Below, in pieces: positions 23,654-27,250 of a stretch of 64,000 nucleotides of DNA (positions are counted from its first letter, which is position 1; every line of letters begins with the position of its first letter). Both the position numbers and the translations under genes were made by a program. The stretch lies in the IMG/VR virus record IMGVR_UViG_2579778660_000001. The stretch is one strand, 5' to 3'. The notes under the pieces were generated by a model. That model was not told the DNA's origin, made no database searches, and saw nothing but the letters and a program-made list of their open reading frames with translations. This stretch comes from a virus (Duplodnaviria > Heunggongvirae > Uroviricota > Caudoviricetes).

Positions 23654-23788
23654 TCACATTAGTAGCTTTGTTAACTCCCTCAATACCAGGTAGAAGAGTA
23701 ACAAAAATATTGACGCCAGTATTTGCGTGGTCAATGAAGCGTTCATAAACAGATCAATTAGCATTAATAATTCGAAGATAACATCCAT
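23654..23788 (-). CDS. small hydrophobic peptide (44 aa), candidate
   Basis: MDVIFELLMLIDLFMNASLTTQILASIFLLLFYLVLRELTKLLM; GGAGTG RBS. Confidence 0.3.
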   Translation of the reverse strand: MDVIFELLMLIDLFMNASLTTQILASIFLLLFYLVLRELTKLLM

Positions 23789-23886
23789 GTCATTCACTCC
23801 GTTTAATTTTTAATCTAATGCCAGCAAATGAAGCTGGCCCCCGCATAAAGATTAATGAAAGTCACTTGTCACCAGTGAGGGGATTT

Positions 23887-23970
23887 ATGAACCACATCCC
23901 CCTGAACTGGTGTCCTGTCTGTTTCTCGCATTTCACACCCTGCATACAGTTTCCCCCAGGTTATGACTGA
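23887..23970 (+). CDS. small Cys-containing peptide (27 aa), candidate
   Basis: MNHIPLNWCPVCFSHFTPCIQFPPGYD; GAGGGG RBS 5 nt upstream; sits inside a long imperfect hairpin. Confidence 0.25.
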   Translation: MNHIPLNWCPVCFSHFTPCIQFPPGYD

Positions 23971-23981
23971 GAGGCTTTGTT

Positions 23982-24311
23982 ATGGGCTATAGCAGACTCG
24001 ACGATAGGTACATTGAAGACGATATTTTTCGTGCGCTGTTTCACCAGGAAATGATTAAGCGGGTATCGGAGTATCACTCTGATAATTTCCAGTACACGAT
24101 AAAGATTGATGAAGTATATCGTTCAGACCTTGCAGCCTACAGGGCGTATGGCAATGCAGATTTGCGCTGGGTATTCCGGGTGCTGGTGGGCCATGAGTCA
24201 GAAATGGAAGAAATGCCCGCCGGGACCACGTTAACTCTTCCTGATGTGGCATGGCTGAGGAACAAGATCCGTGATTACGCGAGCGCGGAACCGGAGATAG
24301 AAAATGCCTGA
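23982..24311 (+). CDS. hypothetical protein (109 aa)
   Basis: GAGG RBS; 8-nt overlap with downstream gene. Confidence 0.55.
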   Translation: MGYSRLDDRYIEDDIFRALFHQEMIKRVSEYHSDNFQYTIKIDEVYRSDLAAYRAYGNADLRWVFRVLVGHESEMEEMPAGTTLTLPDVAWLRNKIRDYASAEPEIENA

Positions 24312-25497
24312 TTTCCTGAAAAAACAGGACGGGCGCTATATCACTGACGGCCTGTCCTCTAAGGACTTCACGCGTTTATTCGAGATTATCAGGAAAGAAC
24401 AAACCCGTAAGCGCCGACAAGCTCACCGGACGCTGACGCCAGGTAGACTGAGGAACAAATCCGCCGAAGATATTCTCAAGTTAGGGAAGAAAAAAGGCGG
24501 CACGTTCTTCACGCGAGACGACCTGAAAGGTTTCGAAAAGCTACGGAGTAAAACGCGCGAAAAATATGACAGCAAGACGGCTGGCATCACATACGCCCAG
24601 CTGGTGGCATCCAGCCAGGCAATCGATATTAAGCGTGCAAATAACGCCGTGGATGACGGATCTGGTATCAAAAGAGCTACCCCCGTATCTCTTCGCCACA
24701 ATGTGATTAATATCCGCGTAGAAGCATCGGATATATCCGTCCACCAGCACCATATCGTCCGGATACGCTTTGAAGAATGGGATCAGATGGTTGATGACAT
24801 CGCAGAAGACGATAAATCAGCTCTCAAAATCACTAAATCACTGTGCGCCGGGCGAGTGTCTTTCGATTGTGACTGTGGTCGTCATCAATACTGGTATCGT
24901 TACATCGCCACTGCGGGTAACTTTGCCCTGGCACCGCCAAAAGAATACGCCTATCCAAAAGTTCGCAACCCGAACCTGCAAGGCGTCGCCTGTAAACACG
25001 TGATCCACTCAATGACGCGGTTACAGTCCGCCAGTTGGCAAATGAGTATTGCTCGTGCGCTACAAAAGGCTGCAACGCAAATTGCATTTGGTGACGATCG
25101 CCGCCGTACAACCAAACACTTCTCAAAAGAAGACGAGAAGGAGTTTAATCGCAATCGTAGCAGTAAAACGAACGTTGAAGCCGCCAAACGCGAATGGAGA
25201 CTCTATCAGAAGCGCCAGGCAGCTTTAAGTTCAAAACTGGCAAAGGACAACGGCAAGATCGACAAGCTACGTGACCAATTGACCAGGGCCAGAAAGTTGT
25301 CAGACGCACAGAAAAAACGGGCGGCTGCAAAAGAAGCGGCCTTGCAACGAGAGAAGCAGAAAAACAAGGAGCTTCAGCAACGCCTTGCCGATCAGTTCGC
25401 ACTGAAGAAGCAGGCGTTCATTGATGCGCTTGTCATGGCAGGAACGTCACCTGAGCAAGCTGAAAAAATGTTTATAGAGTACGTGAAAAAAGCATAA
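24304..25497 (+). CDS. hypothetical protein with SWIM-like zinc-finger motif and basic coiled-coil C-terminus
   Basis: FDCDCGRH...VACKHVIH (CxC...CxH); Lys/Arg/Glu-rich C-terminal third. Confidence 0.55.
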   Translation: MPDFLKKQDGRYITDGLSSKDFTRLFEIIRKEQTRKRRQAHRTLTPGRLRNKSAEDILKLGKKKGGTFFTRDDLKGFEKLRSKTREKYDSKTAGITYAQLVASSQAIDIKRANNAVDDGSGIKRATPVSLRHNVINIRVEASDISVHQHHIVRIRFEEWDQMVDDIAEDDKSALKITKSLCAGRVSFDCDCGRHQYWYRYIATAGNFALAPPKEYAYPKVRNPNLQGVACKHVIHSMTRLQSASWQMSIARALQKAATQIAFGDDRRRTTKHFSKEDEKEFNRNRSSKTNVEAAKREWRLYQKRQAALSSKLAKDNGKIDKLRDQLTRARKLSDAQKKRAAAKEAALQREKQKNKELQQRLADQFALKKQAFIDALVMAGTSPEQAEKMFIEYVKKA

Positions 25498-25530
25498 ACC
25501 ACACATAGCCTAGTAGTTTATGCTGGGCTT

Positions 25531-26259
25531 TCATTTTTTTGAAAGATCAATTCCAGTATTATCAAATAAACTGGAAATATCAGACACCAATTTATTAAAA
25601 TGCTTGTCATCATTATAGAATGATGTGCTTTTTATAGCGACTATAAAATCACATAAATCTTGCGGAGATTCAATGCTAACACCCTTATTTTTATATAGTT
25701 CAATAATACTGCCAACATCAGTATGCAATAGTTTTATCGCACCACAAATTTCTCGCTGTTTCGTAGCTAGGTCATTAAGTTTATTTTCATTTTCATCTAA
25801 TATTTGTTTTGAATATTTAGCGTCATTGGTTGCTTGATTTAACTTTGTTTTCTTTCTTTGCAATTCTATTCTTTTATCATAATCAGCAACTTCATCTAAA
25901 TATCTTATTTCAGTGTATAATTTACTTGTTAGCTTAGATATCGTCAGTGTGAGAATAGGAGCTAATACAGATGCAAATACTCCATAAATAAATGGGATTA
26001 CAACGTGACAAACCCACGGGGGTACAATCCAATTATCAAAGAACGGTACATTACCACCAACAAAAACAATAGATAATGTATATAGGATGTCGTCCTTTGA
26101 CTTTAATATAATTAAAATATCCTTCCAGTTAAGGATTAGAAAAGAAATGACAACATATGCAAAAACCTTGTTAAATATTTTATCTTTTATTATTTCAGAA
26201 AATGATTTTAGTTCTGTTTCATTTATAGACGGATTATCTTTAACTTTTTCTGACATCAT
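25531..26259 (-). CDS. AT-rich hypothetical membrane protein (242 aa); candidate exclusion/abortive-infection-type cargo
   Basis: Visibly lower GC than flanks; 2-3 N-terminal TM helices, helical C-terminus; AGGAT RBS. Confidence 0.65.
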   Translation of the reverse strand: MMSEKVKDNPSINETELKSFSEIIKDKIFNKVFAYVVISFLILNWKDILIILKSKDDILYTLSIVFVGGNVPFFDNWIVPPWVCHVVIPFIYGVFASVLAPILTLTISKLTSKLYTEIRYLDEVADYDKRIELQRKKTKLNQATNDAKYSKQILDENENKLNDLATKQREICGAIKLLHTDVGSIIELYKNKGVSIESPQDLCDFIVAIKSTSFYNDDKHFNKLVSDISSLFDNTGIDLSKK

Positions 26260-26280
26260 AGCTTATCCTGATTACTTTTA

Positions 26281-26481
26281 TTATGGATAGTTAAAAGATT
26301 CAACAGGTGATGGTGGCTGAATTGGGTAATGTTTCTTCTCGTACTCCTCAATGAGAAGACTCATAACCTCAAAGAAATCACCTTCCGGAGTATTCATTTC
26401 CGGTTCGTTATCGAACATCGGTTCGACCGCACGCAGTGCGGCCTCATAATCTTGTTCTGTACGGATAGGTTTAATGTTCAT
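26281..26481 (-). CDS. antitoxin-like N-terminal domain ORF lacking HTH (possible truncated HigA-type antitoxin)
   Basis: IRTEQDYEAALRAVEPMFDNEPEMNTPEGDFFEVMSLLIEEYEKKH resembles antitoxin N-domain; ends where an HTH would start; 21 nt upstream of AT-rich gene. Confidence 0.45.
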   Translation of the reverse strand: MNIKPIRTEQDYEAALRAVEPMFDNEPEMNTPEGDFFEVMSLLIEEYEKKHYPIQPPSPVESFNYP

Positions 26482-26491
26482 TAATTACAAA

Positions 26492-26518
26492 GGAAAGCCC
26501 ACTTGCTAAGTGGGCTTT
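26492..26518. terminator. stem-loop between higA and downstream ORF
   Basis: AAAGCCCACTtgctAAGTGGGCTTT; T-run on plus side. Confidence 0.4.
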
Positions 26519-26537
26519 TTGTATGTGTTTTACTATA

Positions 26538-26876
26538 TCAGGCTGCTTTTTTATTCATGTTCCGCTGAGAAATAAATTTTTCAGCAGTATTGATACGACT
26601 TAACTCTTCCTGAACGCGCATATCATTTTCGACTTCCCACAGATCTACTGCGGTCTGAAGATTAATCCAAAAATCTACAGAAGTATCGAATGCTTTTGCC
26701 AGGCGATATGCCATATCCATCGTTAGCTTACGATTATTATTAACAAGAGCACTTACGGTGTTACGATGAACATGAAGTATTTCTGCTAACTCGTTGATCT
26801 TCAGCTCTAACGGCTCCAGGTATTCGTACAGCAGGATATCACCTACGGTCGTCGGTTTTCTGGTTGCCTGTTTCAT
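26538..26876 (-). CDS. higA: HigA-family antitoxin (XRE HTH)
   Basis: VGDILLYEYLEPLELKINELAEILHVHRNTVSALVNNNRKLTMDMAYRLAKAFDTSVDFWINLQ. Confidence 0.8.
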   Translation of the reverse strand: MKQATRKPTTVGDILLYEYLEPLELKINELAEILHVHRNTVSALVNNNRKLTMDMAYRLAKAFDTSVDFWINLQTAVDLWEVENDMRVQEELSRINTAEKFISQRNMNKKAA

Positions 26877-26947
26877 TTTTTTGCCCTTACTAGCGTGCGT
26901 ATTAAGTGGACTCTGGTCAGAACCCGGTCCGTAACCGGGTATCTGTT

Positions 26948-27250
26948 TTAGTATTTGTGAGGGTCGAGATACAAGTCCTCGGCCTTTCCGTTAACCCACT
27001 TAAAAATTAACCTATATTGCTTATTCACCCTTACTGATGAATAGCCATTTAGCTTCCCTGACAGTTCCTCATACCGATTACCTGGTGGTGATCTTAAATC
27101 CTTACAGGTAGTTGCGGCATTGATAATGTCCAACTTCCGTGACAATGTCATATGAATATCAGGAGGTATCTTTCTATGTGGTGTTGAAAATTCAAAAAAA
27201 TCATCAAGCCACGCATCCCTGAAATCCTTTATGTTAATTTTTTTGGTCAT
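26948..27250 (-). CDS. higB: HigB-family toxin (RelE/ParE superfamily)
   Basis: 100 aa; ...LRSPPGNRYEELSGKLNGYSSVRVNKQYRLIFKWVNG...; toxin-first order. Confidence 0.8.
   Translation of the reverse strand: MTKKINIKDFRDAWLDDFFEFSTPHRKIPPDIHMTLSRKLDIINAATTCKDLRSPPGNRYEELSGKLNGYSSVRVNKQYRLIFKWVNGKAEDLYLDPHKY

What the first reader, a model, noticed from the sequence alone, without database searches (positions are those of the whole stretch)
23887..25497. Possible three-gene operon: 27-aa Cys peptide, 109-aa protein, 397-aa SWIM-like zinc-finger protein
A strongly RBS-preceded 27-aa ORF inside a long hairpin leads into two overlapping genes, the larger with a CxC...CxH motif and a highly basic coiled-coil tail. 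The function is unknown and the block lies within the accessory island.
Basis: partly seen in the sequence, partly recalled or inferred. Interest (0 to 1): 0.4.

Follow-up and report, generated by a model that had tools for sequence, protein, structure and literature searches.

The report
P1-type tail genes 26 and 25
The block is the ordinary late operon of a D6/P1-family phage-plasmid, encoding the baseplate plug protein gp26 and the poorly understood zinc-finger "tail stability" protein gp25, and the 27-codon ORF in front of it is most likely promoter and hairpin DNA, not a gene.

Summary
The window is a D6-like P1-family phage-plasmid, 92-98% identical to phage D6.

**The two real genes**
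- The 109-aa ORF (23982-24311) is the homolog of P1 gp26. This is the T4-gp53-like baseplate "plug", solved in PDB 9ay5/9vzk.
- The 397-aa ORF (24304-25497) is the homolog of P1 gp25 ("tail stability"). It is 97.7% identical to D6 orf74.
- They overlap by 8 nt and form a two-gene late operon with its own terminator. The pair is adjacent in about 77 of 80 related viral contigs.

**The 27-aa ORF**
- It exists, but it is not conserved as a gene. Relatives lose its start, its stop or its frame, replace its 5' half with a toxin-antitoxin insert, or lack it entirely. All of its cysteines vary.
- Its invariant 3' part coincides with a D6-type late promoter (ATTTCACA-N7-TACAGT, 23930-23950).
- Its "RBS" is one arm of a hairpin stem.

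**The zinc-finger call**
CxC-x36-44-CxH is present in 135 of 135 full-length family representatives.
- Pfam SWIM is only sub-threshold.

The mechanism of gp25 remains unknown. I favour an assembly factor or low-copy virion protein.

The parts
23857..23925 (+). Imperfect hairpin. Core stems are CACCAGU/ACUGGUG (23870-23876 / 23906-23912) and GGGGAU/AUCCCC (23879-23884 / 23896-23901), with loop 23885-23895 holding the small-ORF ATG. Possibly a terminator or insulator between the upstream unit and the gene-26 promoter.
   Evidence: Fold dG -23.3, z -1.6; consensus fold of 4 relatives. Variants with a toxin-antitoxin (TA) insert carry a different, clean terminator-like hairpin at the same spot (z -3.8).
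23887..23970 (+). 27-codon ORF (MNHIPLNWCPVCFSHFTPCIQFPPGYD). Judged non-coding.
   Evidence: Start lost in the S. dysenteriae plasmid. The 5' half is replaced, with an in-frame stop and no start, in the TA-insert variants L009/L010 and L040-L042, L044. Stop lost in L038/L039/L047 and a frameshift in L026. Absent in pJBIWA008_2/L046. Cys9 is Trp in 19 of the 20 viral contigs with an intact ORF; Cys12 and Cys19 also vary.
23930..23950 (+). Predicted D6-type late (Lpa-type) promoter of gene 26. Box ATTTCACA is at 23930-23937 and the -10 TACAGT at 23945-23950. The predicted transcription start is about 23957.
   Evidence: Motif AAATCACA-N7-TAnnnT occurs 7 times in the window, all on the + strand and all in front of late operons; shuffles give a mean of 1.5 and 0/100 reach 7. 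Leave-one-out PWM score 11.7 bits, rank 8 of 128k positions. Box and -10 are kept in the D6-like relatives scanned while the spacer varies. Geometry matches P1 LP26: 31 nt against 29 nt from the -10 to the ATG.
23971..23974 (+). Shine-Dalgarno GAGG of gene 26, 7 nt before the ATG.
   Evidence: Read from the sequence.
23982..24311 (+). Gene 26 homolog (109 aa): baseplate 'plug', a T4 gp53-like LysM-type protein.
   Evidence: PDB 9ay5_S/9vzk 'Gp26', E 1e-16. PHROG 1269, E 2e-36. D6 orf75 'similar to P1 gene 26'. Role in the P1 baseplate.
24304..25497 (+). Gene 25 homolog (397 aa). It has a basic N-terminal helical region, a beta/alpha core with a SWIM-like zinc finger, and a basic C-terminal helical tail.
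   Evidence: 97.7% identical to D6 orf74 and 56% to P1 gp25 over aa 1-334. PHROG 1722, E 5e-195. AF2 model pLDDT 82.5.
24868..24999 (+). Coding region of the CxC-x38-CxH motif (C189, C191, C230, H232).
25507..25539 (+). Intrinsic terminator closing the 26-25 operon: a 9-bp stem followed by TTCATTTTTT.
   Evidence: Terminator scan. Downstream genes are on the opposite strand.

Best explanation
The region is a two-gene late morphogenesis operon of a D6-like P1-family phage-plasmid.

**Transcription (inferred).** A D6-type late promoter (ATTTCACA-N7-TACAGT, 23930-23950) is presumably activated by the phage's Lpa homolog. It would start transcription near 23957. That is inside, and downstream of the start codon of, the 27-codon ORF, which is therefore not a gene.

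**Translation (shown and inferred).** The mRNA encodes gp26 (shown by homology to the solved P1 protein). In P1, gp26 is the six-copy baseplate plug that glues the wedges to the hub. Through an 8-nt overlap (shown) that suggests translational coupling (inferred), it also encodes gp25. An intrinsic terminator at 25507-25539 ends the unit.

**gp25 (shown and inferred).** It is a basic protein with a zinc-finger core of the SWIM type and a long helical tail. The motif is shown; the fold is predicted.

**Mechanism (inferred, about 45% likely).** I propose that gp25 is a morphogenetic partner of the baseplate/tail proteins. It would be either an assembly cofactor that mostly leaves, or a low-copy, flexible virion protein. 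It would use the zinc finger for protein-protein (or DNA) contact.

**Upstream hairpin (inferred).** The hairpin and its G-rich arm are structural or insulating DNA/RNA at the edge of a small inserted module, not a ribosome-binding site.
For: **Identity of the element.** blastn to D6 and the D6 annotation.

**gp26.** PDB hit with E 1e-16. The P1 cryo-EM papers place gp26 in the baseplate.

**gp25 orthology and family.**
- tblastn and PHROG matches.
- The family holds 660 clusters at 50% identity.
- A gp26 homolog lies upstream of the gp25 homolog in 80/80 viral contigs and ends within about 100 nt of it in 77. The pair is also adjacent in Acinetobacter phage ABMM1 and metagenome contig L014.

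**Late promoter.**
- Seven + strand sites, each upstream of a late operon: mat, 26, 7, upfC, 23, pmgB and R.
- Box and -10 are invariant while the spacer varies.
- A more distant relative has only AAATCACA-N7-GACAAT, a hairpin and an SD in the 59 nt between mat and gene 26.
- The right junction of the toxin-antitoxin (TA) insert lies just upstream of the box.

**Small ORF not conserved.**

**SWIM-like finger.**

**gp25 as low-copy or non-structural.**
- Two peptides in P1 virions and no HHpred match.
- Absent from both P1 cryo-EM models, which account for nearly all virion proteins.
- CRISPRi efficiency of plating (EOP) about 0.1 for genes 25 and 26.
Against: - The gene-26 promoter site is a weak variant (ATTTCACA instead of AAATCACA). 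At 11.7 bits, about 2.6 equal-or-better hits per 64 kb are expected by chance. No transcript data exist here.
- Read-through from mat could still carry the small ORF on an mRNA. In 20 of 29 D6-like viral contigs the ORF is intact.
- Nothing here shows what gp25 binds. The 'tail stability' label rests on old amber-mutant mapping that I could not read, and could partly reflect polarity on genes 7 and 24 in P1.
Confidence: 0.8

Rival explanations
1. The 27-aa ORF is a genuine translated micro-protein or leader peptide, co-transcribed with genes 26 and 25 as a three-gene operon.
For: An ATG with GAGGGG 4 nt upstream. The ORF is intact in 20 of 29 D6-like viral contigs, and a few of the substitutions are synonymous in its frame. 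In the S. dysenteriae plasmid a new in-frame ATG appears five codons downstream.
Against: Relatives lose the start, the stop or the frame, and four lineages with a toxin-antitoxin (TA) insert lack the 5' half. The ORF is absent in pJBIWA008_2/L046. All cysteines vary (C9W in nearly all; C12Y; C19Y/S). The conserved 3' part is explained by the promoter box and -10. The SD is paired in a hairpin stem. Such ORFs are common by chance.
Confidence: 0.06
2. gp25 is a low-copy DNA-binding protein that is packaged or ejected. It would sit in the tail lumen, baseplate centre or head, leave with the DNA, and bind or protect DNA ends. This is functionally like Mu gpN, or like the unidentified protein that circularises abortively transduced P1 DNA.
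For: pI 10 over the whole protein and a basic helical tail. SWIM fingers occur in DNA-binding proteins (established knowledge, Makarova et al. 2002, from memory). The virion mass-spectrometry signal is comparable to that of proteins present in 3-12 copies (gp7, gp6, gp24), yet gp25 is invisible by cryo-EM. The gene sits among baseplate and tail genes.
Against: No sequence or fold similarity to any DNA-end-binding or ejection protein. Two peptides could be contamination. No experiment links gp25 to DNA.
Confidence: 0.15
3. gp25 is a head-side protein, either scaffold-like or a minor head protein next to the portal, not a tail protein.
For: In Acinetobacter phage ABMM1 and Xanthomonas phage Rb1 the homolog lies between the terminase/portal-region genes and the major capsid gene. 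Long charged helices are typical of scaffolds.
Against: In those phages head and tail genes are interleaved. A tape-measure-like gene (in Rb1) or a gp26-like gene (in ABMM1) is the immediate upstream neighbour. In P1/D6 and L014 the gene is embedded in the 26-25-7-24-6-5 block. P1 genetics assigns it a tail phenotype (record annotation).
Confidence: 0.07

Closest known systems
Phage P1 gp25 ('tail stability' protein; PHROG 1722) and D6 orf74
   Same: Orthologous. It is 97.7% identical to D6 orf74 and 56% to P1 gp25 over aa 1-334. The length and the position after gene 26 are the same, and the CxC...CxH motif is the same.
   Different: The C-terminal ~60 residues are too diverged from P1 to align by tblastn. 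In P1 the gene is followed directly by genes 7-24-6-5. Here a terminator and about 1.8 kb of minus-strand accessory genes separate it from gene 7, which has its own late promoter.
Phage P1 gp26 / T4 gp53 (baseplate plug, LysM-like)
   Same: Clear homolog of the solved P1 protein (PDB 9ay5/9vzk, E 1e-16). It falls in the same PHROG, and the gene is in the same position upstream of gene 25.
   Different: It is 109 aa against 125 aa in P1, with a shorter N-terminus.
SWIM zinc finger (Pfam PF04434; e.g. human ZSWIM8, PDB 9rwz)
   Different: The spacer between CxC and CxH is 36-44 residues, longer than I recall for classical SWIM domains. No Pfam hit reaches threshold; the best E is 0.11, in 5 of 26 members. 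The context is a phage morphogenesis operon, not a helicase, transposase or ubiquitin-ligase protein.
P1 Lpa-dependent late promoters (LP26 and others)
   Same: An activator box replaces the -35 and sits a fixed short distance upstream of a TAnnnT -10. One such promoter lies about 30 nt upstream of gene 26.
   Different: The box sequence and spacing differ. P1 has AAGTGACTT-N4-(-10); D6 type has AAATCACA-N7-(-10). The gene-26 site is the weakest of the seven.

Membership tests
P1 gp25 family (PHROG 1722, 'tail stability'/'phage tail protein') | Full-length sequence homology to P1 gp25 / D6 orf74 | tested here: met
   PHROG 1722, E 5e-195, covering residues 2-396. tblastn gives 97.7% to D6 and 56% to P1.
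P1 gp25 family (PHROG 1722, 'tail stability'/'phage tail protein') | Gene immediately downstream of the gp26 (baseplate plug) gene | tested here: met
   8-nt overlap here. A gp26 homolog lies upstream in 80/80 viral contigs and ends within about 100 nt of the gp25 homolog in 77. The pair is also adjacent in ABMM1 and L014.
P1 gp25 family (PHROG 1722, 'tail stability'/'phage tail protein') | Tail-defective phenotype of mutants / presence in the virion | not testable with these tools
   Known only from P1 literature: a 'tail stability' annotation, two peptides by LC-MS/MS, and absence from the cryo-EM models.
P1 gp26 / T4 gp53 baseplate plug | Sequence homology to the structurally solved P1 Gp26 | tested here: met
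   PDB 9ay5_S, E 1e-16, residues 4-99. PHROG 1269, E 2e-36.
SWIM zinc finger (PF04434) | CxCxnCxH ligand signature, conserved across the family | tested here: met
   C189, C191, C230 and H232 are invariant in A4. Present in 135/135 representatives, with n = 36-44.
SWIM zinc finger (PF04434) | Match to the Pfam SWIM model at the gathering threshold | tested here: not met
   No hit at E <= 1 for the window protein. Only sub-threshold hits in 5 of 26 family members, best E 0.11.
SWIM zinc finger (PF04434) | Fold similarity to a solved SWIM domain | tested here: inconclusive
SWIM zinc finger (PF04434) | Zinc binding | not testable with these tools
   Needs metal analysis of purified protein.
Lpa-type late promoter (D6 variant) | Conserved box at a fixed distance from a TAnnnT -10, upstream of a late operon on the coding strand | tested here: met
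   Seven sites, all + strand and all upstream of late operons; 0/100 shuffles reach 7. The box and -10 at gene 26 are invariant in relatives. The site is weak by leave-one-out PWM.
Lpa-type late promoter (D6 variant) | Lpa-dependent transcription start | not testable with these tools
   No transcript data are available. The D6 genome paper (PMC5800970) and the P1 genome paper (PMC523184) were not available.
Small protein-coding gene (the 27-aa ORF) | ORF (start, frame, stop) preserved in relatives, with purifying selection | tested here: not met
   Relatives lose the start, the stop or the frame, replace the 5' half, or lack the ORF. Non-synonymous changes affect all Cys residues.

The most novel reading that the evidence does not exclude
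The gp25 family has at least 660 sequence clusters and is encoded next to the baseplate-plug gene in the P1/D6-type relatives examined and in at least one distant phage (ABMM1). It may be a previously unrecognised class of zinc-finger (SWIM-type) phage morphogenesis protein. One possibility is a chaperone that loads the gp26 plug during baseplate closure. Another is a low-copy basic protein that travels with the DNA. Either would explain why P1 gp25 gives a virion mass-spectrometry signal but is invisible in two cryo-EM reconstructions.
Probability: 0.3. Interest if true: 0.5.

Novelty: already known. Interest (0 to 1): 0.25.

Why it matters
As a genome feature this is ordinary. Both genes are annotated orthologs of P1 genes 26 and 25 in a known phage type, and the small ORF is best dropped.

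The useful residue is about gp25. It is one of the few P1 morphogenesis proteins still without a role after proteomics and two cryo-EM studies. An invariant four-ligand zinc-finger signature, a confident predicted core fold and strict linkage to the plug gene give concrete, cheap experiments: Cys/His point mutants, zinc analysis, and gp25-gp26 pull-downs.

The analysis also yields a working consensus for D6-type late promoters. It shows that the region between mat and gene 26 is an insertion hot-spot.

Tried and rejected
**Searches on the 397-aa protein that found nothing useful**
- Pfam and NCBIfam: no significant family.
- PADLOC: only a weak hit to the helical tail.
- PDB sequence searches: a single-sequence search gave only a chance-level match (pectin lyase B, E 0.2), and a profile search matched only coiled-coil proteins.
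- Foldseek against PDB: nothing, E >= 0.19.
- The AlphaFold-database library was not available.

**P1-type late promoter for gene 26**
- I tested whether the P1 consensus explains the region. On the + strand the box is followed by no -10. The good match is on the minus strand and belongs to the neighbouring small gene.

**Gene downstream of gp25 in distant phages**
- I tested whether this gene (PHROG 4597) is a remote homolog of the stopper gp7, which would extend the conserved synteny. hhalign gave a probability of 0.5%, so I rejected it.

**Context of distant family members**
- Three of the four look-ups (P0200, P0237, P0250) gave contigs too short to be informative.

**Papers not available**
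- The P1 genome paper, Walker & Walker 1983 and the D6 genome paper were not in the library.
- I therefore could not read the primary basis of 'tail stability'. I also could not check whether the D6 late-promoter consensus is already published.
- A literature search for a SWIM finger in phage tail proteins found nothing relevant.

Full report
**What the window is.** Megablast of the region and blastn of the whole window show a D6-like member of the P1 family of phage-plasmids. It is 92-98% identical to Escherichia phage D6 over most of its length, in reverse orientation to the D6 record. In the D6 annotation the finding region corresponds to:
- orf78, 'similar to P1 gene mat';
- two tiny hypothetical ORFs on the opposite strand (orf77, orf76);
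- orf75, 'similar to P1 gene 26';
- orf74, 'similar to P1 gene 25'.

These are followed by four opposite-strand accessory genes, which include a HigB/HigA pair, and then genes 7, 24, 6 and 5.

**Checking the observation.** The 109-aa and 397-aa genes overlap by 8 nt (ATGCCTGA). GGAG lies 7 nt before the gene-25 ATG, and GAGG lies 7 nt before the gene-26 ATG.

The CxC...CxH motif is C189-x-C191 ... C230-K-H232. The last 137 residues are basic (pI 10.2) and predicted as long helices.

The hairpin is real but statistically ordinary: dG -23.3 kcal/mol and z -1.6. The G-rich 'RBS' forms the inner stem (GGGGAU/AUCCCC), and the ATG sits in the loop.

Short SD-preceded ORFs are frequent in this window. 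There are 474 ATG ORFs of 20-40 codons. Of these, 41 have an SD-like 4-mer upstream and 6 have a strong 5-mer.

Genes 26 and 25 have the GC content of the phage core, 49-51%. The adjacent minus-strand block is at 31-34%. The 'accessory island' description therefore fits the neighbours, not these genes.

**The 27-codon ORF is not a gene.** I compared the mat-to-gene-26 spacer in D6, four plasmids, two plasmids with a toxin-antitoxin (TA) insertion, a more distant Enterobacter plasmid, and 29 D6-like viral contigs. The ORF is intact in 20 of the 29 viral contigs. The other relatives show these changes:
- The start is ATT in a Shigella dysenteriae plasmid.
- The stop is TGT in L038, L039 and L047.
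- L026 has a frameshift.
- In six relatives with a RelE/HigA insertion, the 5' half is replaced by unrelated sequence that has an in-frame TAA and no start codon.
- The whole segment is missing in pJBIWA008_2 and L046. There, mat and gene 26 are only 59 nt apart.

The peptide's cysteines are not conserved either. Cys9 is Trp in every relative except one contig identical to the window. Cys12 becomes Tyr, and Cys19 becomes Tyr or Ser, in others. Synonymous and non-synonymous changes are about equally frequent.

**What the conserved part of that ORF is.** P1 late promoters consist of a 9-bp box (consensus AAGTGACTT), 4 nt, and a TAnnnT -10 (record annotation and alignment). That consensus is almost absent from D6 and from the window.

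The upstream regions of D6 late operons instead share AAATCACA-N7-(T/C)AnnnT. In the window this pattern occurs seven times. Every site is on the + strand and lies just upstream of a morphogenesis operon:

| Position | Operon |
|---|---|
| 22843 | mat |
| 23930 | gene 26 |
| 27351 | gene 7 |
| 38558 | upfC |
| 41329 | gene 23 |
| 49960 | pmgB |
| 57799 | R |

Shuffled sequence gives a mean of 1.5 matches, and none of 100 shuffles reaches seven.

The gene-26 site (ATTTCACACCCTGCATACAGT) is the weakest of the seven. A matrix built from the other eleven D6 sites scores it at 11.7 bits. That is rank 8 of 128,000 positions, and about 2.6 such hits per 64 kb are expected by chance. The motif alone is therefore suggestive, not proof. 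Four further points support it:
- **Position.** Its -10 ends 31 nt before the ATG. P1's LP26 ends 29 nt before its ATG.
- **Conservation pattern.** The box and -10 are unchanged in the D6-like relatives scanned, while the 7-nt spacer varies.
- **Insertion junction.** The TA insertions end just upstream of the box.
- **Distant relative.** The Enterobacter plasmid keeps only AAATCACA-N7-GACAAT, a hairpin and an SD in front of gene 26. It also uses the ATTTCACA variant upstream of mat.

The predicted start, near 23957, lies downstream of the small ORF's ATG.

**gp26.** The 109-aa protein matches P1 Gp26 in PDB entries 9ay5/9vzk with E 1e-16, and PHROG 1269. Two P1 cryo-EM studies place six copies between the hub and the wedges, as a T4-gp53-like 'plug'.

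**gp25: what is known.** The 397-aa protein is the ortholog of P1 gp25. In P1:
- It is annotated 'tail stability' from amber mutants.
- It gave two peptides (8.4% coverage) in purified virions but no HHpred match. The authors left open whether it is structural or an assembly cofactor.
- It does not appear in either cryo-EM model. Those models assign gp7 as stopper, gp24 as terminator and gp26 as plug. It also has no PDB sequence match.
- CRISPRi knock-down of gene 25 or gene 26 lowered plating about ten-fold.

**gp25: what was added here.** The family is large. A profile search found 660 clusters at 50% identity with E <= 1e-3, and 201 with E <= 1e-30. All 135 full-length representatives examined carry CxC-x36-44-CxH. 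The four ligands, plus G192, R193, W197, K231 and others, are invariant in a 28-sequence alignment.

AlphaFold2 gives a confident model: pLDDT 82.5 for the full length and 88.5 (pTM 0.85) for the core, residues 88-262. The model has a three-stranded sheet and a fourth strand ending in CxC. The CKH sits at the start of a helix.

**Synteny.** A gp26 homolog lies upstream of the gp25 homolog in all 80 viral contigs retrieved. It ends within about 100 nt of the gp25 homolog in 77 of them. The pair is also adjacent in Acinetobacter phage ABMM1 (PHROG 1269 followed by the gp25 homolog) and in a distant metagenomic contig that keeps the P1 order 26-25-7-24-6-5. Tight linkage, often with overlapping or abutting stop and start codons, suggests coupled expression and a functional partnership.

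**Most likely mechanism.**
- *Shown:* a two-gene unit with SD sequences, overlapping codons and a downstream intrinsic terminator.
- *Shown:* orthology to P1 genes 26 and 25.
- *Shown:* a conserved zinc-finger signature.
- *Inferred:* late, Lpa-type transcription from 23930-23950.
- *Inferred, about 45% likely:* gp25 acts with the baseplate/tail proteins. It would be an assembly cofactor, or a flexible low-copy component that uses the finger for protein (or DNA) contact.
- *Rivals:* a packaged or ejected DNA-binding protein (15%), a head-side scaffold-like protein (7%), and a translated 27-aa peptide (6%).

**Verdict.** This is a known pair of P1-family morphogenesis genes. The proposed third gene is an artefact of reading a promoter-and-hairpin region as coding. 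The SWIM-like finger in gp25 is a correct and mildly useful observation about a protein whose role is still open.

Noticed in passing
window 23654-23788 (-) and 23849-23870 (-): A 44-aa hydrophobic ORF (= D6 orf77) with a good SD looks like a real small membrane-protein gene. 29 database homologs were found, nearly all 44 aa long, and the ORF is kept even where its N-terminal half has diverged in variants with a toxin-antitoxin (TA) insert. About 55 nt upstream, on the same strand, is the only P1-type late promoter in the window and in all of D6: GACAAGTGACTT-TCAT-TAATCT, PWM 17.8, chance 0.09 per 64 kb. It is conserved in every D6-like relative checked. Every other late operon uses the D6-type box. 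It may be a moron that responds to a P1-type Lpa.
   Followed up: partly
window 22843, 23930, 27351, 38558, 41329, 49960, 57799 (+): The D6-type late promoter consensus is AAATCACA-N7-(T/C)AnnnT. It differs from P1's AAGTGACTT-N4-TAnnnT in both box and spacing. There are seven sites in the window and twelve in D6, all upstream of late operons. I could not check whether the D6 genome paper already reports it.
   Followed up: partly
L009 1657-2534, L010, L040-L042, L044 (equivalent to window 23716-23921): In several relatives a RelE/ParE-HigA toxin-antitoxin pair with its own clean terminator hairpin is inserted between mat and gene 26. It replaces the hairpin and the 5' half of the 27-aa ORF, but keeps the P1-type promoter, a diverged orf77 and the gene-26 promoter. 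The spacer is an insertion hot-spot.
   Followed up: yes
window 25531-27250 (-): A low-GC (31-34%) accessory block splits the P1-type 26-25-7-24-6-5 operon. It holds a 242-aa predicted membrane protein with no family match and a 66-aa ORF matching only the first 65 positions of PADLOC PD-Lambda-2_B (E 2.5e-16). It also holds an HTH antitoxin (HigA-like, 112 aa) and a HigB-like toxin (Pfam E 4e-35).
   Followed up: partly
window 23862-23945 (-) = D6 orf76: The D6 record annotates a different 27-aa ORF on the opposite strand, across the same hairpin.
   Followed up: partly
L075-L077 (viral contigs): In three related contigs the gp26 homolog ends about 760 nt upstream of the gp25 homolog, which suggests an insertion between the two genes.
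   Followed up: no
L006 (pSa1423-90k, NZ_MK356557.1): This plasmid record shows many small indels relative to all other relatives, and its annotation is broken into short hypothetical proteins. It is probably a low-quality assembly, so I gave its differences little weight.
   Followed up: no
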